Below, in pieces: positions 7,088-56,957 of a stretch of 64,000 nt of DNA (position 1 is the first letter of the stretch; every line of letters begins with the position of its first letter). The stretch comes from Anaeramoeba ignava BMAN (taxonomy: Eukaryota; Protista; Anaeramoebae): assembly GCA_028826165.1 (NCBI GenBank), contig JAPDFW010000033.1, positions 124,001 to 188,000 of the forward strand, read 5' to 3'. Made by a program: the position numbers and the translations under genes. The notes beneath the pieces were generated by a model, which was not told the origin of the DNA, did not search any database, and was given only the letters and a program-made list of their open reading frames with translations.

Positions 7088-10000
7088 TTATTTTTTTTTA
7101 ATTGCTTCTTGAATTGGTTTTAAAAATTCTTCATATTTTATTTGAATATTTTTTATAACTTTTTGCATTGATTCTGTTTGAGCTTCAAGAATTGTTTGAA
7201 GTTCATGTTTATCCAATAAATCAAACTAAATTTATAAATCCAAAAAAAAATCAAAAAAAAATATAATTTTTAAATTTTTAAATTTTTTAAATTTTTTACA
7301 TCAATTTTTATTTTTCGAGGAATTTGAATAGAAATTTGATGTTCTTCTTCATCATCTTCATTTTTTTGATTTGTTTCTTCATTTTTTTTAAATATTGCTA
7401 AATTTTCCTGAATTAAAGAAGGATCTTCACAAAGTGCTCCTAAATCAATAATAAGATCTTTTTTTTCATCTTCATCAAATTCATGAAGATCGTAAGAGAA
7501 ATGATTTGATAAAACATCATCTGGGTCAACAGTTGATTCCAATGTACTTTTGCTTTCCTTTTTTTTTTTTAAATAAATTATTAAATAAATTTTCAAATAA
7601 ATTTTTATCCGATTTTTAAATAAATTAATAAATAAATTTTTATCCGATTTTTGAAATAAATTATTATCCGATTTTCAAATAAATTAATAAATAAATTATG
7701 AAATAAATTATTAAATAAATTAATAAATAAATTATTAAATAAATTTTTAAATAAATTTTCAAATAAATTTTTAAATAAATTTTTAAATAAATTTTTAAAT
7801 AAATTAATAAATAAATTAATAAATAAATTAATAAATAAATTAATAAATAAATTAATAAATAAATTTTTATCCGATTTTTAAATAAATTAATAAATAAATT
7901 TTTATCCGATTTTCAAATAAATTATTAAATAAATTTTTAAATAAATTTTTAAATAAATTTTTTTAAATTAATAAATAAATTATTAAATAAATTAATAAAT
8001 AAATTATTAAATAAATTTTTATCCGATTTTGAAATAAATTAATAAATAAATTATTAAATAAATTATTAAATAAAATTATTAAATAAATTATTAAATAAAT
8101 TATTAAATAAATTATTAAATAAATTAATAAATAAATTAATAAATAAATTAATAAATAAATTATTAAATAAATTATTAAATAAATTATTAAATAAATTATT
8201 AAATAAATTAATAAATAAATTATGAAATAAATTATTAAATAAATTAATAAATAAATTATGAAATAAATTATGAAATAAATTATTAAATAAATTATTAAAT
8301 AAATTATTAAATAAATTATTAAATAAATTATTAAATAAATTATTAAATAAATTATTAAATAAATTATTAAATAAATTATTAAATAAATTATTAAATAAAT
8401 TTTTAAATAAATTTTTATCCGATTTTGAAATAAATTTATTTTTTTACATCAACTGTAAAACTATCTGAAAGAGGAAAACTAATTAATTCTTTTATTTCAT
8501 TACTTTGATCTTTAACATTTTTTACAAATGATTCCTTTTTAATAAAATTAAAAACAATTTCTAAATTAATTAAATCAAAATTTTAAAATAGAATAGAATT
8601 TATTTATTTTCTCTTTTACTTTAAGAAGATCTTGAGCTTTTGCACGAAGTGAAGGTAATTTAATTAAACAAAGTGATACAAAATATTGGAATTCTTTTGA
8701 CCAAACATTAGCAGTTAATTGAGGTGGTGGATTTTTTGAGATTAACATTACTGCCTAAAATTTTGAATTTGATTTTGATTTTGATTTTGAATTTGAATTT
8801 AATTTTGATTTTGATTTTGAAATTAATTTTGGTTTTAATTTGGATTTAATTTTGATTTTGATTTTGATTTTGATTTTGAATTTTACTTGAACTGAATGTA
8901 AATTTGAATATGGTGGATTTTTTTCTGCAAGTTCTATTAAAGTTATTCCAAAAGACCAAATATCAATCTTTTGATCATAACCTTGTTTTGTAATTAATTC
9001 TGGAGCCATCCATAAAGGCTATCAAATTTTATTTGAATTTAAATTTGATTTTAAATTTGATTTTGAATTTAAATTTGATTTTAAATTTGATTTTGAATTT
9101 AAATTTGATTTTAAATTTGATTTTGAATTTAAATTTGATTTTAAATTTGATTTTGAATTTAAATTTGATTTTAAATTTGATTTTGAATTTAAATTTGATT
9201 TTAAATTTGATTTTGAATTTAAATTTGAATTTGATTTTGAATTTGAATTTTGAATTTAAATTTAAATTTTGAATTTGATTTTGAATTTGATTTTGAATTT
9301 GATTTTGAATTTGATTTTGAATTTGATTTTGAATTTGAATTTGAATTTGAATTTAAATTTGATTTTGATTTTGATTTTGATTTTGAATTTGAATTTGAAT
9401 TTGAATTTGAATTTGAATTTAAATTTTGAATTTGAATTTTGATTTTGAATTTGATTTTGATTTTGAATTTGATTTTGATTTTGAATTTGATTTTAAATTT
9501 GATTTTGAATTTGATTTTGATTTTGATTTTGATTTTGATTTTGATTTTGATTTTAAATTTGATTTTAAATTTGATTTTGAATTTGATTTTGAAATTGATT
9601 TTGAAATTGATTTTGATTTCGAATTATAATTCGTTTTACAGTTCCAATTTGTGTATATTGTTTTTTTTCTTCTGAAGACATCCAAACTGAAACACCAAAA
9701 TCAGCTTTTAAAATAAAAAGAAAAATTTGAATTAAAATTAAAATTAAAATTAAATATAAAAAATCAATCAAAATCAATCAAACAAATTTTTGGTTGACCA
9801 TCTTCTGTTAATAAAATATTTGAAGCTTTAATATCTCTATGAATAATATTTAAAGAATGAAGAAATTCAATTCCTTCTAAAACTTCACGAGAAATATAAG
9901 CAATTTGCTTTTCATTTAGAGATTTTTTCTTGATTAAATCTGCAAGAGATCCACCAGCACAATATTCCATAATAATCTAAACAAAATTTTTTGATTAATT

Positions 10001-10353
10001 TTTAATTCGAAAAAAATTTTTTTTTGATTAATTTTTTTTCGAAATTTTTTTTTGATTAATTTTTTTCGAAATTTTTTAAATTCATTTTAAATCATTTTAA
10101 ATTAAATAATATCAACCCATATTTCTCCGTCTTTTGAAAATGTATGGAAATATTTGATTATGTTTTTATGTTTGCATCTTCTGAGAACTGAAATTTCAAG
10201 TGCTGCTTTTTGAGTATATTCATTTGATACTTTTTTGACAGCTACAATTTCATTAGTTGATTTAACTTGTGCTTTCCAAACTGTTGAAAATCCTCCATAA
10301 CCAAGTTGTGAAATTAATTTAATATCTTCATATTTAGATTTTGGATTTTGCAT
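7088..10353 (-). CDS. STE20-family MST1/2 (Hippo/Krs-like) kinase with C-terminal SARAH domain; 8 exons
   Basis: Motifs [34 protein letters not shown] and GTPLWMAPE. Introns 9977-10116, 9705-9783, 9019-9639, 8755-8886, 8535-8619, 7558-8447, 7226-7299. Last exon [45 protein letters not shown]. Confidence 0.9.
7558..8447 (-). repeat. Composite intronic satellite with about 7 AAAATCGGATAA motifs (sense strand)
   Basis: AATAAATTATTA-type units interspersed with TTATCCGATTTT on the + strand. Confidence 0.9.
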
Positions 10354-10454
10354 TATAATAAAAATTGTTCAAAAAAAAAGCAAAAAAAAAATGAAAAAAA
10401 ATTTTTAATTCATTTTTTTTCATTTTCATTTTTTTTTTATAAACAATTTTTATT
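10354..10454. promoter_or_regulatory. Putative bidirectional promoter (kinase / MORN gene) with opposed TCATTTT initiator-like motifs
   Basis: 101 bp between divergent ATGs; aaaatgaaaa on the left, tcatttt three times on the right. Confidence 0.65.
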
Positions 10455-13400
10455 ATGACTTTAAAAAAAGAAGTTAAAGTTTATCATGATCGTTCTATTT
10501 ATGAAGGTTTTTCTTCATTTTTCTTTTCATTTTAATTTTTTATTTTTTATTTTTTCAATTTAATTTTAAAAAAAATAAAATAATAGGTGAAACATTAAAT
10601 GGAATGAGACATGGGTAAATTTGTTTTATTTAACATATTTAATCAATTTAAAGCAAATTCATTTTATAAAGCAAATTCATTTTATAAATTTATAAAGCAA
10701 ATTCATTTAAAGCTATTTTATAAATTAAAATTAAAATTAAAATTAAAATTAAAATTAAAATTAAAATTAAAATTAAAATTAAAATTAAAATTAAAATTAA
10801 AATTAAAATTAAAATTAAAAATTAAAATTAAAATTAAAATTAAAATTAAAATTAAAATTAAAATTAAAATTAAAATTAAAATTAAAATTAAAATTAAAAT
10901 TAAATTAAAATTAAAATTAAAATTAAAATCAAAATTAAAATTTAAATTAAAATTAAAATTAAAATTAAAATTAAAATTAAAATTAAAATTAAAATTAAAA
11001 TTAAAATTAAAATTAAAATTAAAATTAAAATTAAAATTAAAATTAAAATTAAAAATTAAAATTAAAATTAAAATTAAAATTAAAATTAAAATTAAAATTA
11101 AAAAATTAAAATTAAAATTAAAATTAAAAATTAAAAATTAAAATTAAAATTAAAATTTAAAATTAAAATTAAAAATTAAAATTAAAATTAAAAATTAAAA
11201 ATTAAAATTAAAATTAAAATCCATTTATAAATTAAAATCAAAATCAAAATTAAAATTAAAATTAAAATTAAAATTAAAATTAAAATTAAAATTAAAATTA
11301 AAATTAAAATTAAAATTAAAATTAAAATTAAAATTAAAATTAAAATTAAAATTAAAATTAAAATTAAAATTATAATTATAATTAAAATTAAAATTAAAAT
11401 TAAAATCAAAATCAAAATTAATATTAAAATTAAATTTAAAATTTAAATCAAAATCAAAATCAAAATCAAAATTAAAATTAAATTTAAAATTAAAATTAAA
11501 ATTAAAATTAAAATTAAAATTAAAATCAAAATTAATATTAAAATTAAAATTAAAAAAATGAATTAGTTATGGTGTTTATAGATATCATAGTGGAGAAAGA
11601 TATGAAGGTCATTGGTTTCTTGATAAAAAACATGGAAGAGGAAAATATTTTTATACATCAGGAGGAATTTATGATGGAGAATGGGATTTTGGAAGAAAAA
11701 CAGGAAAAGGTTCTTTCAAATTCCCAAGTGGTGATTTATATGATGGAACTTGGAAAAGTGATAAAAGAGATGAGTACTAATTATCTTTTTTAAATTTAAT
11801 TCAAAAAAATTTAATTCAAAAAAATTTAATTCAAAAAAATTTAATTCAAAAAAATTTAATTCAAAAAAATTTAATTCAAAAAAATTTAATTCAAAAAAAT
11901 TTAATTCAAAAAAATTTAAAATGAAATTCTTTTAAAGTTTCGGAATATATAATTATAGTATTGGGTAAGTTTAAAAAATTAAAAAAATTTTTTAATTGAA
12001 AAATTTTAATTCAAAATTTTTTTTCCGATTTTTATATTTTTATATTTTTATACTTTTTTATATCATTAAAAGTGATCGATATGAAGGTTATTGGTATGAG
12101 GATCAAAAACATGGAAAAGGTTATTATATGTTCTCTTCTAAATCTGAATATATTGGTGAATGGGTATTTGGAACAAAAGAAGTAAATAAAAACAAAATAA
12201 AAAAATAAAATATTTTTATATAAATTTGGAAAGTTAATTTTTTAATAATATTTTTTTTAAATAAGGGATTTGGAAGATTTAATTTTAATACTGGAGATAT
12301 TTATGAAGGAAGATGGAAAAATGAAAAAAGAGACGGGTAAATTCAATTAAAAATTAAAATCAAAATAATTTAAAAAATTAAAATTAAAAAATTCTTTAAA
12401 ATTCTTTAAAGATTTGGTGTTTATCATTATGGAAGGTAAATTTTATCATTTAATTATAATGTTTTTTTTCTCTGAATTATTAATTAAACTTTTTTATTGA
12501 AACAGAGATCTTGATCGTTATGAAGGAATGTGGAGAGATGATGCAAAACATGGAAAGTAATAAAAAAATTCAATTAAAAAAATTCAATTAAAAAAATTCA
12601 ATTAAAAAAATTCAATTAAAAAAATTCAATTAAAAAAATTCAATTAAAAAAATTCAATTAAAAAAATTCAATTAAAAAAATTCAAAAAAATTAAAACAAA
12701 AAGAGGATTTTATTTATATAAAAATGGAGATTGGTATTATGGTTATTGGAATAAAGGAAAAAAACAAGGAATGTATGATAATTTTGATAAGAATTTTTAT
12801 TTAAAATTAGAAAGAATTTTTTTTATAATTAAAAATTGATAAATAATTGCTTATATCAATTTAAAAGGGGTATTTTTCATTATGCAGATAATGGAAGTGA
12901 ATATATTGGTTTTTGGGATGATAATTATCGTCATGGATTTGGTATTAATTATTTTGGAAATGGAGATGTTTATAGAGGATATTGGAGAAAAGATAGAAAA
13001 GATGGAGAAGGAGATTATTTTTATTCTAATGGGTAGAAATTCTTTAAACAATTTATTTTAAAATCGGATAAAAATTTATTTATTAATTTATTTATTATTT
13101 TATTAAATTATTTATTAATTAATTTTAAAATCGGATAAAAATTTATTTATTAATTTCAAAATCGGATAAAAATTTATTTATTAATTAATTTCAAAATCGG
13201 ATAAAAATTTATTTATTAATTTATTTCAAAATTTATTTATTAATTTATTTAATAATTTATTTAATAATTTATTTATTAATTTATTTATTAATTTATTTAA
13301 TAATTTATTTATTAATTTATTTCAAAATTTATTTAATAATTTATTTATTAATTTATTTCAAAATCGGATAAAAATTTATTTAATAATTTATTTAATAATT

Positions 13401-14848
13401 TATTTATTAATTTATTTATTAATTTAATTATTAATTTATTTATTAATTTATTTATTAATTTATTTATTAATTTATTTCAAAATCGGATAAAAATTTATTT
13501 ATTAATTTAATTATTAATTTATTTAAAAATTTATTTAATAATTTATTTAAAAATTTATTTATTAATTTATTTCAAAATCGGATAAAAATTTATTTAATAA
13601 TTTATTTATTATTAATTTATTAATTTATTTAAAAATTTATTTATTAATTTATTAATTTATTTATTAATTTATTTATTAATTTATTTATTAATTTATTTAA
13701 AAATTTATTTAATAATTTATTTAAAAATTTATTTAATAATTTATTTAAAAATTTATTTATTAATTTATTTCAAAATCGGATAAAAATTTATTTATTAATT
13801 TATTAAAAAAAAAAAAAGAGATCGATATCAAGGAGGTTGGAGAGAAGATCAAAAATCTGGATTTGGATATTACTTCTATCTAAACGGAGATATTTTCGAA
13901 TCATTCTGGTATTCCGGATTAAAACACGATCCTGAAGCTAAATTCTATCCTGGAAACGACACAAGCAAAGTAATCATAGAAAGTTATTCAGATGGAGTAC
14001 AAAAAGAAATCAAAGAAACTCGATCAGCAACAAAAAGACCTAGTTTTATTCCTAGATTTGAAATGGAAGAATCAGACTTAAAAAAATTTCTTGATCATCG
14101 CGAATCAAGAAATGAAAGACCTGAAGCAGTTATTCCAAGTAATTTCGCTAACAAATGCGAGATGGTGATCCGTTCTTGCTTGTTTTCCAAGCAGGACTAT
14201 AAGTCTTTAATTACAGAAAATACAAGAGCAATTAGTCAAATGGAACATAATGCAGCAAAACATTTTTCAGACTTGAATTTTTGGGAATGGTCAAAAGAAC
14301 AAGTTTCTGATTGGCTTGATTTACTCGAAATTGTTTCAATCAAACCGCTGTTTTTACAGCACTGTATTGATGGATATTGTCTCCAATTTTTAACTGAGTC
14401 TGATCTCAAAGAAATGGAAATTTATGATCTTGATTTGATCCAAAAAATTTTAAAAGAAACTCAAAATTTAAAAGAAAATGAAAGTTTACCTAAAAATTTT
14501 CAAAATTCCCATTTGGGTCAAAAGGATAATTCAAATTTAACTTCAGATATCAATTCAAATCATGTTGAAAATGACTTGCGTTCAATTCCTGATTCATTTA
14601 AAAAAAGATTAGAAGAAAAAAATATCAATATTCCTCAAGAATATATTTGTCCTCTTTCAAAGGAATTAATGCAAGATCCAGTTATTTTGAGTGATGGTTA
14701 TACTTATGAAAGAAAAGCTATTGAAGAATGGATTACAAAAAGTAATTATTCTCCTGTTGATGGTTCTCTTCTTTCTGATATCAAATTAAAACCAAATACT
14801 GCTTTAAAGGAACTTATTGAAATTTTTAAAGACAATGTTATGCTTTAA
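10455..14848 (+). CDS. MORN-repeat + SAM + U-box protein (putative E3 ubiquitin ligase); 11 exons
   Basis: Spliced YEG.W...K.HG.G MORN repeats are joined in frame, through the final exon 13819-14848, to a SAM domain (WSKEQVSDWL...FLQHCIDGYCLQFLTESDLKEM) and a U-box (IPQEYICPLSKELMQDPVILSDGYTYERKAIEEW). Confidence 0.88.
13033..13818 (+). repeat. Composite intronic satellite of the same family as 7558-8447, with about 8 AAAATCGGATAAAAA motifs
   Basis: Its units are the reverse complement of the kinase-intron satellite units. Confidence 0.9.
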
Positions 14849-25427: not shown

Positions 25428-25459
<32 letters not shown>

Positions 25460-25693: not shown

Positions 25694-27259
25694 CTATTTT
25701 TCGGAAATATAATTCCAAAGTCCATCAGTTAAATGATGGATTGTTTGAGCAGCAACACCTTTTTTAACAACAGGACTATAAAAAGTTTTTAATTTTAATT
25801 ATAATTTTTTTATCCGATTTTAATTTTTAGTTTTAATTTTAATTTTAATTTTTAATTTTAATATTAATTTTAATATTAATTTTAAATTTTAATTTTAATA
25901 TTAATTTTAATTTCAATATTAATTTTAATTCTTAATTTACATTTGAGAAGTTTCAACTTCTAAAACTCCAATTCCAAGTGCATGTTTTTTATCTTCTGCC
26001 ATAATTGCAATCATTGAACCTTTTGGTATATTTTCTTCTGGTAATTTTCCTCCTTTTGAAATTAATCCTGGTATCATTACATCTGCTCCTCCAATAATAT
26101 GTCGAATTGCTCCTTCATCAACTTGAATTGGTGGAAGTATATCAGGATCTTTAATATTAATATTAATATTAATTTTAATTTTAATTTTAATTTTAATTTT
26201 AATTTTCATTTTAATTTTGATTTTAATTTTAATTATAATTTTAATTTTAATTTTAATTTTAATTTTAATTTTAATATTAATTTTGATTTTAATTTTAATT
26301 TTAATTGTAATTTTAATTTTAATTTTAATTTTAATTTTAAATTAAATTTATAAATGAATTTTAATTTTAATTTTAATTTTAATTTTAATTTTAATTTTAA
26401 TTTTAAATTAAATTTATAAATGAATTTTAATTTTAATTTTAATTTTAATTTTAATTTTAATTTTTAATTTTAATTTTAATTTTAATATGAATTTTAATTT
26501 TGATTTTAATTTTAATTTTGATTTTAATTTTTAAATTCAAAATGAATTTTAATTATAATTTTAATTTTAATTTAAATTTAATATTAATTTTAATTTTAAT
26601 TTTAATTTTAATTTTAATTTTAATTTTAAATTTTAATTTTAATTTTAATTTTAATTTTTAATTTTAATTTTATTAATTTTTAAATTTAATATTAATTTTA
26701 ATTTTAATTTTAATTTTAATTTTAATTTTAATTTTAAATTTTTTAATTTTAATTTTAATTTTAATTTTAATTTTAATTTTTAATTTTAATTTTAAAATAA
26801 TTTTAATTTTAATTTTAATTTTTAATTTTAATTTTAATTTTAATTTTAATTTTAATTTTAATTTTAATATTAATTTTAATTATAATTTTAATTTTAATTT
26901 TAATTTTAATTTTAATTTTAATATTAATTTTAATTATAATTTTAATTATAATTTCAATTTTAATTTTAATTTTAATTTTAATTTTAATTTTTATATTAAC
27001 AAGAATGTAAAAGTTTTAAAGTAGGAAAAAAAGGACCGTCTCTTATAGAAAAGAAAAGAACAGTATTATTAAAAGCAAAGAGTTGAATTTTATTTGAACA
27101 TTTTATAACAACAATTGAGTTTTTTTTCTGAAAAAGATCCTGAATAAAAGTTTCTAAAGAAGGATATTGATTAAGAAGTTGTTGTTTCATTTTTTTTTTA
27201 ACGGATGTTTTAGCTAAATTTTGTCCACTAATTTCTTCTGATAAATCTTTACGAAACAT
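25694..27259 (-). CDS. MCTS1: MCTS1/Tma20 translation re-initiation factor (pre-PUA + PUA); 3 exons
   Basis: RDGPFFPTLKLLHSYPDILP..QVDEGAIRHIIGGADVMIPGL..., ending KKGVAAQTIHHLTDGLW. Confidence 0.93.
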
Positions 27260-29480: not shown

Positions 29481-31876
29481 TCATATATCAAGCCATTCAT
29501 CAAAATTATATAAATTTTCGTTTTGATTTTGATTTTCTAATTGATTTTGTATTTCTTTTTCAATTTGATTTTGAATTTCTTTTTCAATTTGATTTTGTAT
29601 TTCTTTTTCAATTTCTTTTTCAATTTTTAAATTATTTCCATTTCCATTTCCATTTGAATTTTCATTTGAATTTTGATTTGAATTTTGATTTGAATTTTCA
29701 TTTGAATTTTGATTTGAATTTTGATTTGAATTTTCATTTGAATTTTCATTTGAAATTTGATTTGAATTTTCATTTGAATTTTCATTTTGATTTTCTAAAT
29801 GATTTTTTATTTCTTTTTTTATTTCTTTTTGTATTTCATTTTGTATTTCATTTTGAATTTTATTTTGAACTTCATTTTGAATTTGATTTTTGAATTCAAT
29901 ATTATCAATTGAGTTATTTATTTTTCTAAATTGTTTATTATTTGGGGTAGATTCATTAAAATCTCTTTCTGATTCACCATCAAAAGTATCAAGACTATGA
30001 CTAACAGTCAATTTATTAATAAGTTCACTTTCAAGATCATCAGTTGAAGATTTTGATTTAAGTTCATTTTCTTTTCTAGTGATTGCAAGTTTTTTTTTCA
30101 CAACTTCTTTTACTCCACTTATAACAAATTTTCTTAATGATTCTTTTGGAGATACTGCTTGTCTAAATGTTTCTGCTTCATTTGCTTCTCCATCTCCTTT
30201 TTTAATTGGATGATTTCTTCCTTTTTCTAGTGATTTTTGTCCTGTTTGTACAAATATTTCATGCTCAATTAATGGTAATTTTTCAATTGAATTAAAACAA
30301 TTATTTTCTATTGCAATTTCGCATTTGCTATTGAATTTGGATAATTCTTCTGCTGGATTTTCTGCCAATAAATTATTATCTAATGTGAGAATTTCTAAAT
30401 TTGGAAGTTCTGCAAGATGAGCAGGAAATCTTTTTAAAAAATTATGATTCAACTATTTTTAATTTTGATTTTAATTTAAAAAGAAATTTTAATTTTAATT
30501 TTAATTTTAATTTTAATTTTAATTTTAATTTTAAATTTTAATTTTAATTTTAATTTTAAATTTAATTTTAATTTTAATTTTAATTTTAATTTTAATATTA
30601 ATTTTAAATTTTAATTTTAATTATAATTTTAATATTAATTTTAAATTTTAATTTTAATTTTAATTTTAATTTTAATTTTATTTTAAATTTAAATTTAATT
30701 TTAATTTTAATTTTAATTTTAATTTTAATTTAAATTTTAATTATAATTTTAATTTTTACTTTAATTTTTTGAAGTGATTTTAATTCTGATAAACTTTTTG
30801 GAACAGAAACCAAAAGATTTGTGTTTGCATATAATATCTTCAAATTTTTCAATTCAGAAACTGAATTTGGAATATGTTTCACATCATTATTATTAAAATA
30901 AAAAGCTTGTAAATTACTGAGTTTTCCAATACTATGTGGGATTTTTGTTAATCGATTTTCATTAATATGAAGGAATCGTAAATTTTTTAATTTGAAAATT
31001 TCTGCTGGTATTTCATTTATCAAATTATTTTTTAAATTTAAACTTTGCAAATTCGATAAATTTGTTAATTCTCTATTATTTATTTAAAAATTAAAATTAA
31101 ATTTAAAATTAAAATTAAAATTAAAATTATTGAAATTAAAATTAAAAATTAAAATTAATATTGAAATTAAATTTAATATTAAAATTAATTTTAAAATTAA
31201 TATAAAAATTAAAATTAAAATTCATTTTGAAATTAAAATTAAAATTAAAATTAATATAAAAATTAAAAATGAATTTGTTTTGGAAATTAATATTAAAATT
31301 AAAATTAATTTTAAAATTTAAATCAAAATTAAAATTAAAATTTAAAATTTAAATCAAAATTAAAATTAAAATTCATTTTAAAATTAAAATTAAAATTAAA
31401 ATTAATATTAAAATTAAAATTCATTTTAAAATTAAAATTAAATTTGTTTTGGAAATTACTTTGGAATTTCTTTTAAACAATTATAACTTAGATCTAAAAC
31501 CCAAAGATTTTTTAATTTTTGAATTTCAGGAGGAATTGCAACAATACTAAAAAAAATAAAATAAATTAAAATAAAAAATTAAATAAATTAAAAAAAATTA
31601 AAATAAAAAAAATTCAAACAAATTTCTTGAACAAGATAAATGTTGTAAATTTGTCAAGTTGAATAATTGAACGTCAAGATCAACCAAAATATTATCAGTT
31701 AAATGAAGAGACACCAATTCTTTCAATTTAAAAACTGATTGAGGAATAGAACAAAGACACATTGTGTTTAATGACATTGTTGGTGATTGACCATTTTTAT
31801 AATTGGATATTTCTTCATGTGCTTGTTTTCTCCCTTCATGAATAAAATCATCTTGTGCGCAACATTTTGAAAACAT
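29481..31876 (-). CDS. Leucine-rich repeat protein; 4 exons
   Basis: LxxLxLxxNxLxxIP repeats joined in frame across three GT-AG introns. Confidence 0.88.
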
Positions 31877-33947: not shown

Positions 33948-34047
33948 TTTTAAATTTAAAAAAAAAAGAAAATGAAAAAAATGGAAAAAAATTTGTTTTC
34001 ATTTTTTTCCTTTTTATTTTTTGAAAAGAAAAAAAGAAAATTAAATC

Positions 34048-34689: not shown

Positions 34690-34786
34690 TTAAAAAAAAA
34701 AGGAAAAAAAAATAATAAAATCTTTTTTAAAAGTAAATCAATTATTTTATTTTAATTTTGATTTTGAAATCTTTTTTAAAAGTAAA

Positions 34787-40700: not shown

Positions 40701-41274
40701 AAATTAAATGTTGAATAATTTCAAGTGATGAATTATATCTACAAGCATAATGTAAAGCAGTTTCATTATCTTTTGTTTTTGAATTAATATCAATTCCTTT
40801 TGAAATTAAATATTTAATAATTTCAAATGATGAATTATATCTACAAGCATAATGCAAAACTGTTTCATTTCCATTTGTTTTTGAATTAATATCAATTCCT
40901 TTTGAAATTAAATATTGAATAATTTCAATTGATGAATTATATCTGCAAGCATAATGTAAAACTGTTTCTTCATTATCATTTGTTTTTGAATTAATATCAA
41001 TTCCTTTTGAAATTAGAAGTTCAATAATTTCAAGTGATGGATTGTTTATAATTGAAATATGAAGTGAATTTCTTCCTAATTCATCTGTTAATTTTGGATT
41101 TGCTCCTTTTGAAATTAATTCTTCAATTATTTCTTTTGAAACTTGTTTTTCGATTGCAAAATGTAAAATTGGTTTATTTTCTTTTATTAATTCATTTTCT
41201 GAAATGTTTTTAATTTCTTTTAATTTTTCAATATTATTTTCTTTAATAATTTCCCAAATATTATTTTGATTCAT
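34787..41274 (-). CDS. Ankyrin-repeat (about 50 repeats) + tandem BTB protein, intronless; single-base frameshifts near 36626 and 35522
   Basis: Three overlapping ORFs continue the same architecture; BTB motifs FSDLVI...LHKLIL..RF and DFKII...VHKLILILRSELFKGMF. Confidence 0.85.
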
Positions 41275-41492
41275 TTTTAAATTTAAAAAAAAAAGAAAAT
41301 GAAAAAAAAATGGAAAAAAAAAAGTGAAAAAAAAGGAAAAAAATATTTTTCTTTTAAATTCAAAAACCGGAAAAAAAATTGATTTGTTGGATTTTTGTTT
41401 TTATTTTGAAAAATGGAAAAAAAGGAAAAAAAAATAATAAAATCTTTTTTAAAAGTAAATCAATTATTGTATTTTAATTTTGATTTTGTAAA

Positions 41493-45443: not shown

Positions 45444-45529
45444 TTTTAAATTTAAAAAAAAAATGAAAAACTTTTTTCTTTTTTTTTTTTTTCTTCATTT
45501 TTTTTCCAACACATTCTCATTTTATAATA

Positions 45530-47430
45530 ATGAGTTTTATAATAAAAAGAAAATTTTCAGTTTCACTTGCATCAAGAATTGGAAGAAAAAGTTTACTTTC
45601 TAAAGTTTGCAAACCAGAAGATACAATAAAATTTTTTGAAGATGGACAAGCACTTGGCTGGTCTGGGTAAGATATTTTTATTTAATTTATATAAAAGGAG
45701 AAAAAAAATTAAAATAAAAAATTTTTGCTTGTTCAATTTTTATTTATTAAATTTTTTATTTGAATTAAATAAGATTTACACCTGTTGGTTATCCAAAAGT
45801 AGTTCCAGTTACTGTTGCAGATTATGTTGAAAAAACTGGAAAAAAAGTAAATAAAACGAAAAAACAATTTTAAATCTTATTTAAAAAAAAAATTTTTTTT
45901 TTTGCTTTTTTTTTTTAAAAAAAGATGAAATTTGATTTGTTTATTGGAGCTTCAGTTGGAGCTGAAACTGAAGATAGATGGGCAAAACTTGATATGATTA
46001 ATAGAAGATGGCCTTATCAAACTGGAAAGAATATTGCAAATGGAATTAATACAGGAAAAATTCAAATGGGAGATATCCATTTATGTAATTATGCGTCCAA
46101 TTTGAAATTTGGATTTTTCACAAAAGAAAAAAAAGGAAAACTTGATATTGGGATTGTTGAAGTTACAGATATTCTTCCAGATGGTGGATTAGTTCTTGCA
46201 GGGTCTGTTGGAGCAGTTCCTGAACTTTGTGATATTTCCGAAGTAAAAAATTTAAAAAAAATTCAAAAAATTCAAAAACATGAAATTTAAAAAAAATATC
46301 CAAAAAAATATTAATAACACGAAATTTATAAAAATTCATAAAAATTTAAAAAAAATATTTAAAATAATTTTAATAAATAGAAACTCATTATCGAATTAAA
46401 CACTTCAATGCCTTCCTATCTCGGTCTTCATGATATCCCACCTGATGAAATTCCTCCAAATAGAAAACCTTATTTAATTACAAGAGTAGACGATAGAATC
46501 GGAACATTTCATGTTCCAATTGATCCTGAAAAAATTGTAGCGATAGTGGAATCAACAAAGCCAGATAACGGAAGACCATTGTCACCTCCAGATGAAGTAT
46601 CAGAAAAAATTGCACAAAACATTCTCGATTTTTTGGAAAACGAAGTACATGCAGGAAGAGTGCCAAAAAATTTGCTTCCTTTACAATCAGGTGTTGGAAA
46701 CATTGCGAATGCAGTTGTGGCAGGATTAGCCAAAGGACAGTTCAAAAATGTTAAGGTTTGGACTGAAGTTCTGCAGGACACAATGCTCGACTTTTTTGAT
46801 ACAGGAAAATTAGATTTTGCAACAGCAACAGCACTTACTTTATCAACAGAAGGATTTGAGCGACTTTATAAGAATTGGGATGAATACACCAAAAAAATCT
46901 GTTTAAGACCACAACAAATCACAAACAACGCAGAAATGATAAGAAGAATGGGAGTGATTGGGATGAATACACCAGTCGAGGTTGACATCTACGGACATGC
47001 CAATTCAACGCTTATTGGCGGAACAAGAATGATTAACGGATTGGGCGGATCAAATGATTTCTTAAGAAACTGTTATATCTCAATGATGCATTTCCCGTCA
47101 GTTAGACCAACCAAAAAAGACCCAACTGGTATCACTTGTGTTGTTCCTATGGCTCCTCATATTGACCATACTGAACATGATTTGGATGTTCTTGTTACTG
47201 AACAAGGTCTTGCTGATCTTAGAGGTCTTGCCCCAAGACAAAGAGCTATTGAAATTATCAATAAATGTGCTCATCCGGATTATAAACCTATTTTGACTGA
47301 TTACTTTAATACTTCTTATCAACATTGTTTGAAACAAAAGGCTGCTCATGAACCTCAAATTCTTTCGAAAGCTTATAAAATGCAAGAATATTTGGAGAAA
47401 AATGGAACAATGAAAGTTGATAAATGGTAA
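45530..47430 (+). CDS. Acetate:succinate CoA-transferase / acetyl-CoA hydrolase (Ach1-like, ASCT 1C-type) with organellar leader; 4 exons
   Basis: [80 protein letters not shown]; leader [10 protein letters not shown]. Confidence 0.95.
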
Positions 47431-47704: not shown

Positions 47705-50700
47705 TTAATTGATGAGAACAGATTTGTCATTCTTATTCTCATCATTTTCATCATTTTCATCATTTTCATCATCAATAGATGAAAAGCTTTTATAACCATG
47801 TCTTTGTTTTTTACGATGAAGAACAATAACGATGATAATAGCAGCAACAAAGACTAAAGAACCCACAACAATTCCTGAAACAGCACCTGCACTAAGTTTT
47901 TTAGAAGATGAACCAGTACTTGGATTTGGATTTGGTGTTGGTGTTGGTGTTGTTTTTTCACAACTTGAATCTGGTCCGTATTTCCAAATTATACAGGTGT
48001 AATTGTCTGGTTTTTGTTGATTTCCATGATAACAAGTTTGATCATCCATACACCATCCGCAACTTCGATCAGCGTAATGTTCTAAACAAGTATCACAATT
48101 GTTATAATTTGCTTGGCATTCATCAACAGGGACTATTTTGATTTTTAATTTTAATTTTAATTTTATTTCAATTTTATTTCAATTTTATTTCAATTTAATT
48201 TCAATTTTATTTCAATTTCAATTTATTCCAATTTATTTCATTTTATTTCAATTTATTTCATTTTATTTCAATTTATTTCATTTTATTTCATTTTATTTCA
48301 AATTATTCCAATTTATTTCAATTTATTTCAATTTATTTCATTTCATTTCAATTTATTCCAATTTTATTTCAATTTATTTTATTTCATTTTATTCCAATCT
48401 CCTTCATTTTATTTCATTTTATTTCAATTTTATTTCAAATTATTTTAATTTATTTCAATTTATTTCATTTTATTTCAAATTATATAATTTATTTCAATTT
48501 TATAATTTAATTCAAAATTAATTCAATTTATTTCAATTTATTTCAATTTATTTCATTTTATTTCAATTTATTTCATTTCATTTCATTTCATTTCATTTCA
48601 TTTCATTTCATTTTATTTCATTTTATTTCATTTCAATTTATTTCATTTTATTTCAAATTATTTCAATTTTATTTCATTTTATTTCAATTTATTTCTATTT
48701 ATTTTATTTTATTTCATTTTTATTTTATTTTATTTCAAATTTATTCCAATTTATTTCAATTTTATTTCAATTTATTTCAATTTATTTCAATTCATTTTAA
48801 TTTATTTCATTTTATTTCATTTTATTTTATTTCAATTTATTTCAATTTATTTCAATTTATTTCAATTTATTTCAATTTATTTCTATTTATTTCATTTTAT
48901 TCCAATTTTATTTCATTTTATTTCAATTTTATTTCAATTTATTTCAATTTATTTCAATTTTATTTCAATTTATTTCATTTCATTTTATTTCATTTTATTT
49001 CATTTTATTTCATTTTATTTCAATTTATTCCAATTTTTATTTCAATTTATTCCAATTTATTTCAAATTATTTCAATTTTATTTCAATTTTATTTCATTTT
49101 ATTTCATTTTATTTCATTTTTATTTCAATTTATTTCAATTTATTTCAATTTATTTCATTTTATTTCTATTTATTTCAATTCCAATTTATTTCATTTTATT
49201 TCAATTTATTTCATTTTATTTCAATTTATTTCATTTTATTTCAATTTATTTCATTTTATTTCAATTTATTTCATTTTATTTCATTTTATTTCATTTAATT
49301 TCAATTTATTCCAATTCATTTCAATTTATTTCATTTTATTTCAAAATTATATACAAGGTGTTGGTGTTGGAGAAGGAGAAGGTGTTGGAGTAGGAGAAGG
49401 AGTTGGAGGAGGAGGTCCTGAACAATTTGCTGTTGGTCCATAATACCAATCTTGTTGTGAACATGTTCCATTTGTTGGTCCAGTATAATTTCCAGATAAA
49501 CAATGTCTTCCATCTGTTTCATTAGCACACCATCCACATTGTCTATCAGCATAATGAGTTAAACATAATTCGCATGTATCATAAAAATCACATTCTATTT
49601 ATATGTTTATATATATTTGAATATTTATTTATTTATTTATATTTATTTATATTTAAATATTTATTTATTTGAATATTTATATATTTATTTATATATTTGA
49701 GTATTTATATATTTATATATTTTTTTCAATTAATAAATTAATGAAAACAAACCCCAAAGTTGACAATCAGCATCTGGTCCATATTTCCAAAATTTATCTC
49801 CACAATAATTTCCATTATCAGGTCCTGTTTGATTTCCATGATAGCATTGATTTGTTGCAAAACACCATCCACAACTTCTATCAGCATAATGTTCTAAACA
49901 AGAACTACAATCATTATAATTTGCTTGACATTCATCAACAGGGACTATATTGATTTATAATTTTAATTTTAATTTTAATTTTAATTTTAATTTTAATTTT
50001 AATATTAATTTTAATTTTAATTTTAATTTTAAATTTTAATTTTAATTTTAATTTTAAATTTTAATTTTAAATTTTAATTTTAATTTTAATTTTAATTTTA
50101 ATTTTAATTTTAATTTTAATTTTTAATTTTAATATTAATTTTAATTTCAATTTCAATTTTAATTTTAATTTTAATTAAAATTAAAAATTATATACAAGGT
50201 GTTGGTGTTGGAGAAGGAGAAGGTGTTGGAGTTGGAGAAGGAGTTGGAGGAGGAGGTCCTGAACAATTTGCTGTTGGTCCATAATACCAATTTTGTTGTG
50301 AACATGTTCCATTTGTTGGTCCAGGATAATTTCCAGATAAACAATGTCTTCCATCTGTTTCATCAACACACCATCCACATTGTCTATCAACATAATGAGT
50401 TAAGCATAATTCGCATGTATCATAAAAATCACATTCTATTTATATATTTATTTATTTAATTGAATATTTATTTATATATTTATTTATATTTGAGTATTTA
50501 TTCAATATTTATTTATTTAATTGAATATTTGAATATTTATTTATATTTGAATATTTATTTATTTAAATATTTATTTTATTGAATATTTAAATATTTATTT
50601 ATATTTGAATATTTATTTATATTTATATATTTGAATATTTATTTATTTTTTTCAATTAATAAATTAATGAAAACAAACCCCAAAGTTGACAATCAGCATC

Positions 50701-53700
50701 TGGTCCATATTTCCAAAATCCTGTACTACATGTTGCATTATTAGGTCCTGTTTGATTTCCATTATAACAAGTTTGATCGGAAATACACCATCCACAACTT
50801 CTATCAGCATAATGTTCTAAACAAGAACTACAATCATTATAATTTGCTTGACATTCATCAACAGGGACTATATTGATTTATAATTTTAATATTAATTTTA
50901 ATTTTAATTTTAATTTTAATTTTAATTTTGATTTTAATTTAAATTTTAATATTAATTTTAATTTTAATTTTAATTTTGATTTTAATTTTAATTTTAATTT
51001 TGATTTTAATTTTAATTTTTAATTTTAATTTTAATTTTAAATTCAATTTTAATTTTAATTTTAATTTTAATTTTAATTTAAATTTTAATATTAATATTGA
51101 TTTTAATTTTGATTTTAATTTTAATATTAATTTTAATTTCAATTTTAATTTTAATTTTAATTTTAATATTAATTTTAATTTTAATTTTAATTTTAATTTT
51201 AATATTGATTTTAATTTCAATTTTAATTTTAATTTCAATTTTAATTTTAATTTTAATTTTAAATTTAATTAAAAATTATATACAAGGTGTTGGTGTTGGA
51301 GAAGGAGAAGGTGTTGGAGTAGGAGAAGGAGTTGGAGGAGGAGGTCCTGAACAATTTGCTGTTGGTCCATAATACCAATCTTGTTGTGAACATGTTCCAT
51401 TTGTTGGTCCAGTATAATTTCCAGATAAACAATTTCTTCCATTTGTTTCATCAACACACCATCCACATTGTCTATCAACATAATGAGTTAAGCATAATTC
51501 GCATGTATCATAAAAATCACATTCTATTTATATATTTATTTGTTTAATTGAATATTTATTTATATATTTATTTATATTTGAGTATTTATTCAATATTTAT
51601 TTATTTAATTGAATATTTATTTGATATATTTATTTATATATTTATTTATATTTGAATATTTATTTATATTTGAATATTTATTTATTTAAATATATATTTA
51701 TTTGAATATTTATTTATATTTGAATATTTATTTATTTAATTGAATATTTATTTGATATATTTATTTAATTGAATATATATTTATTTAATTTAATATTTAT
51801 TTAATTGAATATATATTTATTTAATTTAATATTTATTTATATTTGAATATTTATTTATTAAATATTTATTTAATTTAATATTTATTTATTAAATATTTAT
51901 TTTTTTGAATATTTATTTATTTTTTTCAATTAATAAATTAATGAAAACAAACCCCAAAGTTGACAATCAGCATCTGGTCCATATTTCCAAAATCCTGTAC
52001 TACATGTTGCATTATTAGGTCCTGTTTGATTTCCTTGATAGCATTGATTTGTTGCAAAACACCATCCACAACTTCGATCAGCATAATGTTGTAAACAAGA
52101 ACTACAATCATTATAATTTGCTTGACATTCATCACCAGGGACTATATTGATTTATAATTTTAATTTTAATTTTAATTATAATTTTAATTTTAATTTTAAT
52201 TTTGATTTTAATTTAAATTTTAATTTTAATTTTAATTTTAATATTAATTTTAATTTTAATTTTAATTTTAATTTTGATTTTAATTTTAATTTTAATTTTA
52301 ATTTTAATTATAATTTTAATATTAATATTGATTTTAATTTTGATTTTAATTTTAATATTAATTTTAATTTTAATTTTAATTTTAATTTAAATTTTAATTT
52401 TAATTTTAATTTAAAATTTAATTTTAATTTTAATTTTAATTTTAATTTTAATTTTGATTTTAATTTTAATTTTAATTTTAATTTTAATTTTAAATTTAAT
52501 TAAAAATTATATACAAGGTGTTGGTGTTGGAGAAGGAGAAGGTGTTGGAGTAGGAGTAGGTGTTGGAGGAGGTGGATTTGAACAATTTGCTGTTGGTCCA
52601 TAATACCAATCTTGTTGTGAACATGTTCCATTTGTTGGTCCAGTATAATTTCCAGATAAACAATTTCTTCCATTTGATTCATCAACACACCATCCACATT
52701 GTCTATCAACATAATGAGTTAAGCATAATTCGCATGTATCATAAAAATCACATTCTATTTATATGTTTATATATATTTGAATATTTATTTAATATATTTA
52801 TTTTATTGAATATTTATTTATTTAAATATTTATATATTTAAATATTTATTAAATATTTATTTATTTAATAAATATATTTATTTAATTGATATATTTAATA
52901 TTTATTTAATTGATATATTAAATATTTATTTAATTGATATATTAAATATTTATTTATTTGAATATTTAATATATTTAATTGATATATTTATTTAATTGAT
53001 ATATTTATTTATTTTTTTCAATTAATAAATTAATGAAAACAAACCCCAAATTTGACAATCAGCATCTGGTCCATATTTCCAATATCCTGTACTACATGTT
53101 GCATTATTAGGTCCTGTTTGATTTCCATTATAACAAGTTTGATCGGAAATACACCATCCACAATTATCAGAATAATGTTCTAAACAAGAACTACAATCAG
53201 TATAATTTGTTTGACATTCATCAACTACAAATTAAAATTAAAATTAAAATTAAAATTAAAATTAAAATTAATATCAAAATCAAAATCAAAATCAAAATCA
53301 AAATCAAAATCAAAATCAAAATCAAAATCAAAATCAAAATTAAAATTAAAATTAAAATTAAAATCAAAATAAAAATTTAAATTAAAATCAATATTAAAAT
53401 TAAAATTAAAATTAATATTAAAATTAAAATTGGAATTAAAATTAAAATTAAAATTAAAAATTAAAATTAAAATTAATATTAAAATCAAAATTAAAATTAA
53501 TATTAAAATCAAAATTAAAATTAAAATTAAAATTTAAATTAAAATTAAAATCAAAATTAAAATTAAAATTAAAATTAAAATCAATATTAAAATTAATATT
53601 AAAATTAAAATTAAAATTAAAATTAATATTAAAATTAATATTAAAATTAATATTAAAATTAAAATTAATATTAAAATTAAAATTAATATTAAAATTAAAA

Positions 53701-54145
53701 TTAAAATTAAAAATCAAAATCAAAATTAAAATTAAAATTAAAAATCAAAATTAAAATTAAAATTAAAATTAAAATTAATATTAAAATCAAAATTAAAATT
53801 AAAAAAAGAATTACCAGATAAATCAAAAGAATTTTGAGAAATTTTAGAAGAAACAATATCATTTTGTAAATTAAAATCTTGACAAAGAGAATTTTGACCA
53901 AAAATCCAATTTTGATTTGAACATTTATTATTATTATTTGGACCTAAATGATTTCCAGGGAAACATTTTTGAGAATCTGAACACCATCCACAATTATTTT
54001 CTTCAGAATTTGATAAACACAAATCACAACTTTCAAACCCTCGACATTTGTGTTTTCCTTTTGATTTTATATTGGAAATTTCGTTAAATAATGCTGGAAT
54101 TATTATTAATAATAAAAAACCAAATAAAGAAATGGAAATTTTCAT
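47705..54145 (-). CDS. Type I membrane protein with 10 PSI-like Cys-rich domains and Pro/Thr/Ser linkers; 10 exons
   Basis: Signal peptide; C..C.......CGWC....C..G...GP...C....W.YG repeats. Exons 54145-53815, 53224-53045, 52754-52515, 52141-51953, 51523-51284, 50867-50679, 50435-50196, 49944-49753, 49594-49355, 48132-47705. TM segment LSAGAVSGIVVGSLVFVAAIIIVIVL. Confidence 0.9.
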
Positions 54146-54289
54146 TCAAAAAAAAAATGAAAAAAATGAAAAAAAAAATGAAAAAAAAAATTAAAAAAAA
54201 AGTTTTTTTTTTGTTATTATTAATTTTTTATAATAATTAGTAATTTGGATAAAAAAACAAAAAAAAAGCAAAAAAAAAAAGTGGAATTT

Positions 54290-54579
54290 ATTTTTATTTT
54301 TATTTAGATTTAGATTTTATTTTTATTTTGATTTTTATTTTTATTTTGATTTAGATTTTAATTTTATTTATTTTGATTTTTATTTAGATTTTGATTTAGA
54401 TTTGATTTTCATTTTGATTTAGATTTTAATTTATTTTGATTTTATTTATTTTGATTTAGATTTTATTTGATTTTGATTTAGATTTAGATTTAGATTTTAA
54501 TTTTATTTGAATTTATTTATTTTTATTTTTATTTTGATTTAGATTTGATTTTTATTTTGATTTAGATTTAGATTTAGAT
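54290..54579. repeat. Degenerate TTTAGA/TTTTGA/TTTTTA repeat downstream of eEFSec
   Basis: Hexamer-like array starting immediately after the stop codon. Confidence 0.75.
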
Positions 54580-56957
54580 TTAAACTAAGAAAACATATTT
54601 CGTTTTCCTCATTTTAATAATATTTCCTACTTCAATCCATGAAGAATCATTACTATCAATTCTAATTTTAAATTTTCCAGTTTTTCCAAAAGAAGAAATT
54701 ATTGTTCCATCTGTTTTTTTTCCATCTTTATTTTCAATAGAAACTTGAGTTCCTGAATAACGTTTAATTTCAGCTCCTTTTCCAAATAAATCTTTACCAA
54801 TCAAAGTTGAAGAATCTTGAACACGATCAACTAAACCTGTTCTAAATTTAAAAGAAGCAATTTTAAGATTTTCTTTTAAAGATTTTGATTCAGTTTCCCA
54901 ATTAAAACCATTAATAATTTGACCCGAAAAGGCAATTCTACATTCATTTGATTCAAGTGGAATTTCCAGTTTTCCTCCAATTAATAAACTATTATTTAAT
55001 GCAAGAATTTTTTTTTCAAATTTTAATAAGGCAAAAATAGGTGAATCTTCTTGTTTAAATTCATCAACATATAAATATTCCAAATCTGTTGTAAAATTAT
55101 CAAAAGAAACTTCTTTTTTTTCTTTTGGTGGTTTAAAAAATAAGAATTTTGTCATAACAGTTTCATGTCCAATTGTGATATGAAGTTTGGATCGTGATTT
55201 AATTGGATGTTTAAAAAATTTAATTCTATTAAATAATGCGATTGCTCCTGTAAATGAACTTATAGCTCCTGGTTGACAAACAATACCTCTTTCAAATAGT
55301 TTTGAATCAAATTGAGAAATACAAATTCCTACTCTATCTCCCTTTTTAAATTTTAATTTAATTTTTTATCCGATTTTAATTTTTTATCCGATTTTAATTT
55401 TAATTTTAAATTTTAATTTTAATTTTAAATTTTAATTTTAATTTTAATTTTAAATTTAAATTTTAATTTTAATTTTATTTTTAAATGAATTTTAATTTTA
55501 ATTTTAATTTTAATTTTAATTTTAATATTAATTTTAATTTTAATTTTAATATTAATTTTGATTTTAATATTAATTATAATTTTAATTTTAATTTTTAATT
55601 TTAATTTTAATTTTAATTTTAATTTTAATTTTAATTTTAATTTTAATATTTTTGTTCATTCTACTTTTTCAGCTTGTAAAACATCCTCATGAAAAATTTG
55701 CATTGATTTTATTCTTCTTTGTTCATTTAAACTTGGAAATTCAATTGTATCTGAAACACTACAAGAACCTTGAATAATAGTTCCAGTTATAATAGTACCT
55801 TTTCCTTTTAAATTAAAACAATGATCAACAAGCATTACAAATGGATTTTTTGTATTAATTCTTTCAGGAATCTCAATCATATTTTGTAATTCTTTCATGA
55901 CTAATTCATTTCCTTTAGATTGAAGTGCAGAAACTGAAACAATTGGTGAATTTCCAAATGGTGAATCACTTAATGCTTTTTTGATATGTTTTTCAAGAAG
56001 TTCAATTCTCTTTTTTAATTTTTCTTCTGGTAATAAATCTGTTTTATTTAAAACAATAACCATTTTGTTTGTCCAAATACTTGCAATAATAAAATCCTAA
56101 AAGATTTTTAATTTAATTTTTTATCCGATTTTGAATTTTTTATCCGATTTTAATTTTAATTTTAATTTTAATTTTAATTTTAATTTTAATTTTGATTTTA
56201 ATTTTAATTTTAATTTTAATTTTAATTTTAATTTTAATTTTAATTTTAATTTTAATTTTAATTTTAATTTTAATTTTAAAATGAATTTTAATTTTAATTT
56301 TAATTTTAATTTTAATTTTAATTTTAATTTTAATTTTAATTTTAAAATGAATTTTAATTTTAATTTTAAAATGAATTTTAATTTTAATTTTAAAATGAAT
56401 TTTAATTTTAATTTTAAAATGAATTTTAATTTTAATTTTAAAATGAATTTTAATTTTAATTTTAAAATGAATTTTAATTGTAATTAATAAAATACTTCAG
56501 CAGTTTGAGTTTGAATTCCTTTTGTAATATCAATAACCATAATAGCCATATCTATTATTTGAGAACCACCAACAACAGTTCTAATAAGAGAAGCATGACC
56601 AGGACAATCAACAAAAGTAAATTGAATTTCTTTGATTTGCATTTCTTCTGCTCGTTTTTGTAAATGTTCTGGAATTGGAATTTTTGTTGATGAAAATCCA
56701 AGATCTAAAGTGATTTTCCTTTCTTGGCTTTGTGGACTTTTATCAAAAGCTGCTGTTGATTTAGTTGTACTTATCATTTTGGCTTTAGAATAATTTAAAA
56801 TTGATACATTGAAATTTTTTTATTTTTATTTTTTTAATTTTTTTAATTTTTTTAATTTTTTTAATTTTCAAAATTATCAACCTAATGTTGTTTTTCCTGA
56901 ATCAACATGTCCAAGAATTGCAATAGAAACATTAAAAGGTTTTGATTTTAAATTCAT
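54580..56957 (-). CDS. EEFSEC: Selenocysteine-specific elongation factor eEFSec (SelB); 4 exons
   Basis: ILGHVDSGKTTL, STAAFDKSPQSQERKITLDLGFS, FVDCPGHASLIRTVVGGSQIID, VDHCF, GDRVGIC, HITIGHETVM, CRIAFSG, SSFGKTGKFKI. Confidence 0.95.

What the first reader, a model, noticed from the sequence alone, without database searches (positions are those of the whole stretch)
7558..56151. Sense-strand intronic motif AAAATCGGATAAAAA just upstream of 3' splice sites in four unrelated genes
Seen: about 20 copies of this CG-containing motif in five introns: kinase 7558-8447 (about 7), MORN 13033-13818 (about 8), MCTS1 (25807), eEFSec (55363, 55381; 56118, 56137). Every copy I found is in the transcribed orientation. 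The last copy ends about 44, 32, 31, 21 and 21 nt before the AG. The surrounding repeat differs between introns, so it is not simply part of one satellite. Several of these 3' sites have A-runs rather than a polypyrimidine tract. Inference: a lineage-specific splicing element (protein or snRNA site) marking the 3' end of repeat-inflated introns, or the footprint of an RNA-mediated element that seeds introns.
Basis: partly seen in the sequence, partly recalled or inferred. Interest (0 to 1): 0.75.

Follow-up and report, generated by a model that had tools for sequence, protein, structure and literature searches.

The report
Shared GC word in intron repeats
In the very AT-rich amoeba Anaeramoeba ignava, the same 15-letter word sits in repeat-swollen introns of unrelated genes and at other places in the genome; it is most likely a passenger copied between these repeats as DNA, though its habit of lying just before the intron's end leaves open that it helps splicing.

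Summary
In detail: 19 exact plus 1 one-mismatch copies of AAAATCGGATAAAAA, all sense, in 5 of 59 modelled introns (5 of 27 long, 0 of 32 short); last copies end 44, 32, 31, 21, 21 nt before the exon. Three window proteins are 100% identical to proteins named Anaeramoeba ignava. Short-read DNA contigs confirm the word and show it at about six other loci, three with an AG 18-25 nt downstream, none clearly antisense. But there are two repeat backgrounds, not five; 13 of 20 copies lie far from the acceptor; 22 of 27 long introns lack it. A second word (AATTCATTT) is shared between unrelated introns, once inverted over 50 exact nt, so these arrays likely trade sequence as DNA; 11 of 13 hexamer arrays point the same way, which can explain the strand bias. 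At least one host intron looks old, against intron seeding. Best reading (0.55): a variant unit spread by ectopic copying and slippage. Rival (0.25): a retained 3'-end splicing aid; its core CGGAUA can pair with U2 just upstream of the branch helix, but weakly (free-duplex p=0.20) and it misses the toehold positions.

The parts
7558..8447 (-). Intron 6 of a STE20-like kinase gene, 890 nt, 12-nt satellite (AATTTATTTAAT type) with 7 copies of the word (7602, 7637, 7661 one mismatch, 7864, 7899, 8016, 8412); ends in A12-G
   Evidence: single open-frame splice solution; positions; TRF array 7569-8417; not tested by RNA
13033..13818 (+). Intron 10 of a MORN/SAM/U-box gene, 786 nt, same 12-nt satellite with 8 copies (13060-13772); ends in A13-G
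   Evidence: spliced model equals named protein P0023 exactly; 69-nt exact match and 27% of 30-mers shared with kinase intron 6
25776..25940 (-). Intron 2 of MCTS1, 165 nt, AAAATT hexamer array with one copy (25807-25821) ending 31 nt before the exon
   Evidence: spliced model equals named protein P0029
55342..55664 (-). Intron 3 of eEFSec, 323 nt, hexamer array with two copies 18 nt apart (55363, 55381)
   Evidence: model equals P0001; skipped by spliced contig X4 record 21
56097..56495 (-). Intron 2 of eEFSec, 399 nt, hexamer array with seven AATTCATTT words in its 5' half and two copies of the CGG word (56118, 56137) at its 3' end
   Evidence: model equals P0001; skipped by spliced contigs of X3 and X4, word spanned by DNA contigs of X1 and X2
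12018..12032 (-). One-mismatch antisense look-alike in short MORN intron 4; probably chance
   Evidence: 0.45 expected by chance
31073..31459 (-). Control: intron 2 of an LRR gene, a reversed hexamer array without the CGG word that shares 50 exact nt, inverted, with eEFSec intron 2 around the AATTCATTT word
26149..27000 (-). Control: MCTS1 intron 1, 852-nt hexamer array without the CGG word; shares 55 exact nt with eEFSec intron 2 around AATTCATTT

Best explanation
The 15-nt word is a GC-bearing variant unit of a genome-wide family of AT-rich intronic arrays in Anaeramoeba ignava, likely copied between existing introns at the DNA level and likely multiplied within an intron by slippage, most likely without being needed for splicing. 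Shown: the word is identical across unrelated genes and present at further loci; the arrays share other multi-letter words between unrelated introns in both orientations. Inferred: breaks or stalled forks in one array are repaired from a look-alike array elsewhere (ectopic gene conversion or templated repair); one short transfer of about 18 nt carried the word between the hexamer and the 12-nt satellite; the sense bias is inherited from the A-rich-sense polarity of the arrays; the 3'-edge position reflects copying of intron 3' ends as a unit (word plus tail plus AG, tolerated only at a recipient's 3' end) or one-sided array growth. This last step is the weakest.
For: Only two repeat backgrounds; kinase and MORN introns share 69 exact nt including the word and the two longest A-runs before the final G among 59 introns (13 and 12; next 7). 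A control word, AATTCATTT, is embedded in exact matches of 55, 45, 38 nt between introns of different genes and 50 nt in inverted orientation; a point-mutation-only simulation gives it in at most 0.9% of arrays and the CGG core in 0 of 20,000 at each of three rates (no indels or slippage modelled). 11 of 13 hexamer arrays are A-rich on the sense strand, so five sense introns have probability 0.43. 22 of 27 long introns and 10 of 13 hexamer arrays, up to 952 nt, lack the word. 13 of 20 copies are over 60 nt from an acceptor. One other locus matches the eEFSec intron 2 end from the word through the AG with no mismatch and two gaps (record 2). No Rfam family in the window; no stable fold at the five 3' ends (z -0.5 to 1.9).
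Against: Random copying predicts interior and antisense copies in hexamer arrays; all 5 copies there are within 40 nt of the acceptor (p 0.006-0.047), whereas the control word is mostly interior. Exactly the 15-18-nt core crosses two different satellites, and no copy has a changed CGG in introns that are about 95% AT. None of about six other loci is clearly antisense. No copy in the two intergenic arrays and the upstream repeat checked. No antisense CGG copy was seen in a reversed array, but only two reversed arrays are in the window.
Confidence: 0.55

Rival explanations
1. The word spreads by copying but is kept by selection near acceptors because it helps place the branch site in long AT-only introns full of branch-point look-alikes, either by pairing with U2 snRNA just upstream of the branch helix or by binding a protein. 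In the U2 version its last A would be the branch A and CGGAUA would pair with U2 UAUCUG.
For: Only in long introns (5 of 27 against 0 of 32, p=0.016). Last copies put that A 22-45 nt before the exon. Three other loci have an AG 18-25 nt after it, one more is compatible (read by eye). With the U2 stretch common to human and yeast (PMC12342898, PMC4712673) 11 of 15 positions pair in the branch register, all three G/C letters among them; 0.6% of letter shuffles do as well in that register; core ranks 8 of 256; the five introns rank 4-8 of 59 for U2 pairing near their 3' ends.
Against: The register was chosen after seeing the word; the free duplex is only -5.2 kcal/mol and 20% of shuffles match it. 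Positions -2 and -3, the toehold and the most conserved branch-site letter (PMC13167188), are mismatched. A pairing element would tolerate variants, yet the non-pairing letters are also fixed. Most long introns lack it; copies also sit 19-27 nt after donors and all through the 12-nt arrays. The A. ignava U2 sequence was not obtained.
Confidence: 0.25
2. The word acts in DNA: it sat in the middle of some short introns as a protein-binding or fork-stalling site and promoted repeat expansion beside it, so it ends up at the 3' edge, the 5' edge or both.
For: Copies lie 21 and 27 nt after the GT (kinase, MORN), about 19 nt after a probable GT at another locus, and 18-44 nt before the AG, as if from one 55-80-nt intron. 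Every intron with it is expanded (5 of 5).
Against: No short intron with the word among 32; 22 long introns expanded without it; no binding factor was identified (a likeness to GGATA-binding Myb proteins is recalled, untested).
Confidence: 0.1
3. An RNA-mediated or Introner-like element creates these introns or overwrites them from spliced intron RNA.
For: All clear copies are sense; likeness runs to the AG in kinase/MORN and in eEFSec intron 2 against one other locus.
Against: 5' ends differ and two unrelated interiors exist; no target duplication or terminal inverted repeat seen by eye; MORN intron 10 shares position and phase with intron 4; both MCTS1 introns match human intron positions and phases as recalled (c.262, c.464; PMC10841658 passages confirm only c.164 and the boundary before A133); inverted exchange exists.
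Confidence: 0.06
4. The word is a DNA copy of U2 snRNA written into introns at the branch site by RNA-templated repair.
For: It would explain strand, position and exact identity at once; the word is close to the complement of U2 at that register.
Against: A templated copy must be exact; against the human/yeast U2 stretch 4 of 15 positions mismatch and two are wobbles. It needs an unusual U2 in this species.
Confidence: 0.03

Closest known systems
Intronic micro- and minisatellites with variant units spread by slippage and ectopic gene conversion (general knowledge; the class that PMC9860276 filters out as secondary microsatellites within existing introns, passages)
   Same: Tandem arrays inside introns; multi-letter variant units shared between non-allelic arrays, in either orientation; not needed for splicing.
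   Different: Nearly half the modelled introns are arrays (27 of 59 at 150 nt or more), they share a vocabulary between unrelated genes, and one GC word crosses two satellites and favours the acceptor edge.
U2-type branch site with an extended U2/intron helix (toehold and strand invasion; PMC13167188 passages; PMC12342898 passage)
   Same: Distance to the acceptor; CGGAUA can pair with U2 directly upstream of the branch core.
   Different: The -2 U and -3 pyrimidine are missing in that register; a fixed 15-mer in a minority of introns; many interior copies.
Introners (PMC9860276, passages)
   Same: Unrelated genes share intron sequence; some likeness reaches the 3' splice boundary.
   Different: Likeness does not span both boundaries; no TSD or TIR seen; host introns look old.
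Conserved splice signals of intron-poor Anaeramoeba pumila (10.64898/2026.04.11.717937, passages)
   Same: Same genus; U2-type GT-AG introns.
   Different: A. pumila has 22 introns with a conserved 5' site and a CT(G/c)AC branch point; the word here is unlike either.

Membership tests
Intronic satellite with ectopically shared variant units | Head-to-tail array inside an intron | tested here: met
   TRF arrays inside modelled introns
Intronic satellite with ectopically shared variant units | Multi-letter variant units identical between non-allelic loci beyond point-mutation chance | tested here: met
   69-, 55-, 50-, 38-nt exact matches; simulation; further loci
Intronic satellite with ectopically shared variant units | Transfer independent of transcription direction | tested here: inconclusive
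   Met for AATTCATTT (inverted 50 nt); no clear antisense copy of the CGG word
Intronic satellite with ectopically shared variant units | Length and content polymorphism between alleles or strains | not testable with these tools
   Read laying skipped the arrays; no genome held
U2-type branch site | Branch A about 18-45 nt before the acceptor with no AG between | tested here: met
   last copies in 5 of 5 introns; holds for 7 of 20 copies
U2-type branch site | yUnAy core that pairs with the U2 toehold (-2 U, -3 pyrimidine) | tested here: not met
   mismatch at -2 and -3 against human/yeast U2; A. ignava U2 unknown
U2-type branch site | Lariat branching at the site | not testable with these tools
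   runs are kept as contigs
Introner | Likeness between introns reaches both splice boundaries | tested here: not met
   ends printed: 3' ends alike within each class, 5' ends differ; no 20-mer shared between classes
Introner | TSD or TIR (present in many families, not all) | tested here: inconclusive
   none seen by eye at the five junctions; some families lack both
Introner | Introns at new positions | tested here: inconclusive
   MORN intron 10 shares position and phase with intron 4; MCTS1 match to human is partly recalled; the 4 relatives fetched show single unbroken matches, so gave no intron positions
U12-type intron | RTATCCTT donor and TCCTTAAC branch site (consensus recalled) | tested here: not met
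   donors listed; the TATCC likeness is on the antisense strand only
Known non-coding RNA family | Rfam match at gathering score | tested here: not met
   0 matches in the window

The most novel reading that the evidence does not exclude
A new splicing signal is spreading through a eukaryote's repeat-inflated introns: a fixed 15-mer, moved between genes by ectopic copying, is kept 20-45 nt before acceptors because it anchors U2 upstream of the branch helix (or recruits a protein) in introns made almost wholly of A and T. In the boldest form (about 0.03) the word is a DNA copy of the species' own U2.
Probability: 0.25. Interest if true: 0.75.

Novelty: new variant of a known kind. Interest (0 to 1): 0.43.

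Why it matters
Even on the neutral reading it shows that introns of one of the most AT-rich eukaryotes (introns 91.86% A+T, PMC11550330 passage) form a network of arrays that trade sequence between unrelated genes, with a rare GC word as a natural tracer for rate, range and polarity of ectopic conversion. If the word is functional, it would be a case of a splicing signal arising and spreading by copying, and would make testable how a spliceosome finds one branch site in introns that lack a pyrimidine tract and are built from branch-point-like words.

Tried and rejected
No genome is held, so no genome-wide count. Collection scans for the word in context: 0 in viral contigs, 0 in metagenome contigs, 1 single match in a gut bacterial MAG, taken as chance. 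A scan for a U2 gene to view the family alignment gave two viral loci with no Rfam match. Intron-position test with MCTS1 relatives: 4 loci, each one unbroken match, scan cut at half the collection: uninformative. RNA structure: no stable fold. A branch-point peak in the 32 short introns: YTRAY matches are spread out, no clear peak. Sequencing artefact: rejected. I first read two loose ends as gene ends on the opposite strand; one is a blend of two records and cannot be read, the other is ambiguous, so I dropped that reading. Summed depth at the word (10,380 in X1, 625 in X2) is no copy number and was used only as a sign of many loci. Earlier scan notes: nothing for this genome or this sequence. 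Recalled likenesses to Sm sites, ARS consensus, telomere repeats and GATA sites were considered and left: each rests on a few AT-rich letters.
Full report
Source. The window is about 17% GC. Three of its genes give proteins 100% identical to records named Anaeramoeba ignava: eEFSec P0001, a MORN/SAM/U-box protein P0023 and MCTS1 P0029. No whole genome is held. [quoted passage not shown]

The observation. The exact 15-mer occurs 19 times, with two more at one mismatch, against 0.45 expected. I modelled 59 introns in 13 genes: 15 reproduce named proteins exactly, 29 come from open-frame solutions (unique for kinase, ASCT and LRR; first of 2 for fructokinase and of 8 for the PSI-repeat gene; four WD introns from a partial solution), 15 were placed by eye. 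The ankyrin/BTB cluster and the last few hundred bases have no modelled introns. Spliced contigs of runs X3 and X4 skip eEFSec intron 2, and X4 skips intron 3; the other three introns were not tested with RNA. DNA contigs span the word at 56118. The word is in 5 of 27 introns of 150 nt or more and 0 of 32 shorter ones (p=0.016).

There are two backgrounds. Kinase intron 6 and MORN intron 10, in neighbouring divergent genes, share a 12-nt satellite, a 69-nt exact match and the two longest A-runs before the final G. MCTS1 intron 2 and both eEFSec introns share the AAAATT hexamer; between the two classes only 15-18 nt around the word match. In the 12-nt arrays copies are evenly spread (KS p 0.37, 0.40) and begin 21 and 27 nt after the donor; 13 of 20 copies are more than 60 nt from an acceptor. 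In the hexamer arrays all five copies are within 40 nt of the acceptor: p=0.006 for a 45-nt zone with three introns, 0.047 counting eEFSec once. An antisense one-mismatch copy at 12018 is at chance level.

Other loci. Laying two DNA runs of one sample on the 55 nt around the copy at 56118 gave 56 records in X1 (20 at 95% or better) and 16 in X2. Twelve of 15 loose-end rows and 16 of 73 pieces were shown. With, about six other loci have a long unique flank. Read by eye: three have an AG about 18, 23 and 25 nt after the word and then GC-richer sequence; one is a blended row compatible with that; one has a probable GT about 19 nt before the word; one (X4) can be read either as a sense acceptor 21 nt after a variant copy or as an antisense copy beside a donor. 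None is clearly antisense. Four rows were uninformative (continuing repeat, a match without the word, a short GC-rich end). This sample sees only copies near unique sequence and with the same tail, so it cannot compare edge with interior. One locus matches from the word through the AG with no mismatch and two gaps. In the two spliced runs the word is on few, shallow contigs (depth 4 against 185 for the gene in X3), a weak sign that it is not in an abundant mature RNA.

The control. A second word, AATTCATTT, lies within exact matches of 55 and 45 nt (eEFSec with MCTS1 intron 1), 38 nt (two other genes) and 50 nt in inverted orientation (eEFSec intron 2 with the reversed LRR intron 2). Point mutation alone produced its 11-nt form in at most 0.9% of simulated arrays (indels and slippage not modelled). 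So these arrays likely exchange sequence between loci as DNA, or descend from common sources, in either direction. Eleven of 13 hexamer arrays are A-rich on the sense strand (three are paralogous copies in one gene), so five sense introns have probability 0.43. Dispersal, identity and strand of the CGG word therefore need no function. The control word is mostly interior, and the CGG word in hexamer arrays is not: that difference is the residue the neutral model explains least well.

Age of the introns. MORN intron 10 has the same offset and phase in the MORN repeat as intron 4, and most MORN introns fall into three such classes; this fits old introns, though repeated insertion at glycine codons is possible. 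The MCTS1 introns lie after coding nt 259 (phase 1) and 467 (phase 2), which I recall as matching human introns at c.262 and c.464; the paper read confirms only two other human boundaries (PMC10841658, passages). Relatives fetched from metagenomes gave no intron positions. The five introns fail the Introner criterion of likeness at both boundaries (PMC9860276, passages; ends). Seeding of introns is unlikely.

The U2 lead. Human and yeast U2 share the stretch after the branch-binding box (PMC12342898 and PMC4712673, one passage each). With the word's last A as branch point, 11 of 15 positions pair, including an unbroken CGGAUA helix. In that register 0.6% of shuffles do as well, but I chose the register after seeing the word; the free duplex (-5.2 kcal/mol) is matched by 20% of shuffles. 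The -2 and -3 toehold positions are mismatched, and -2 is nearly invariant in branch sites (PMC13167188, passages). The species' own U2 could not be obtained. This is a lead with one cheap decisive test.

Mechanism. Shown: the word, its place, its presence at other loci, the sharing of words between arrays in both orientations. Inferred: ectopic conversion or templated repair moves it, slippage multiplies it, and array polarity sets its strand. The paper on this genus's inteins notes end-joining capacity and an unusual set of repair enzymes (PMC10710043, passages), which is background only. I give this 0.55, a selected splicing aid 0.25, a DNA site that seeds expansion 0.10, RNA-mediated intron making 0.06, a U2-templated copy 0.03.

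Print. Searches found no description: Anaeramoeba with intron, 26 papers, 20 listed, none on intron repeats or motifs by title or abstract start; Anaeramoeba with snRNA, 0; the word itself, 0; topic searches gave 0, 1 and 13 papers, none on this genus among those listed. Eleven of 15 supplement files of PMC11550330 were searched without a relevant hit; its main supplementary PDF, the likely home of the intron tables S1 and S3A, could not be read and may bear on intron lengths and repeats. PMC8302644 was seen only as a listing. Four earlier scan notes on animal intronic satellites reached by-product readings; they are unchecked and are no support.

Verdict. A real, genome-wide, apparently undescribed feature; most likely a passenger in an unusual network of intronic repeats, with a one-in-four chance of being a splicing signal. 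New variant of a known kind; interest 0.43.

Noticed in passing
window 47501(+), 25503(-), 54279(-), 57331(-), 57358(-), 19824(+): TCCACTTTTT, often followed by GCTTTT, lies 34-294 nt after the stop codon of ASCT, MCTS1, eEFSec and fructokinase in sense orientation, and 66 nt before the WD gene start in antisense; absent within 400 nt after six other stops. Possible 3'-end or promoter element.
   Followed up: partly
window 26149-27000, 31073-31459, 1404-2129, 21351-21432, 55342-56495, 10615-11566: A second shared word, AATTCATTT, in introns of at least five unrelated genes, flipped with the array in the LRR intron.
   Followed up: yes
13 hexamer introns across the window: 11 of 13 AAAATT arrays are A-rich on the sense strand, and long introns are nearly free of internal AG; the cause of this polarity is unexplained.
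   Followed up: partly
window 21612-24868: A 3.26-kb intron made of about 297 copies of an 11-nt unit, the longest in the window.
   Followed up: no
window 32215-45494: Tandem cluster of ankyrin-repeat plus BTB-like genes, some with breaks between reading frames (33309-33330, near 36620, 35451-35605), with an unrelated gene on the other strand at 34045-34689.
   Followed up: no
window 47705-54145: Membrane protein of repeated cysteine-rich (PSI-like) modules; duplicated introns keep their ends but carry arrays of different length and, in the last one, a different unit, so arrays change after exon duplication.
   Followed up: partly
window 10455-14848: MORN-repeat protein with SAM and U-box domains; most of its 10 introns fall at three recurring positions of the repeat, 8 in phase 2.
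   Followed up: partly
window 45531-47430 and 57399-60333: Acetate:succinate CoA-transferase-like and ROK-family fructokinase-like genes, each with three spliceosomal introns; both look bacterial-type by recall, not searched.
   Followed up: no
window 55018 and 55876: A/G differences between contigs of the laid runs in eEFSec exons, likely alleles.
   Followed up: no
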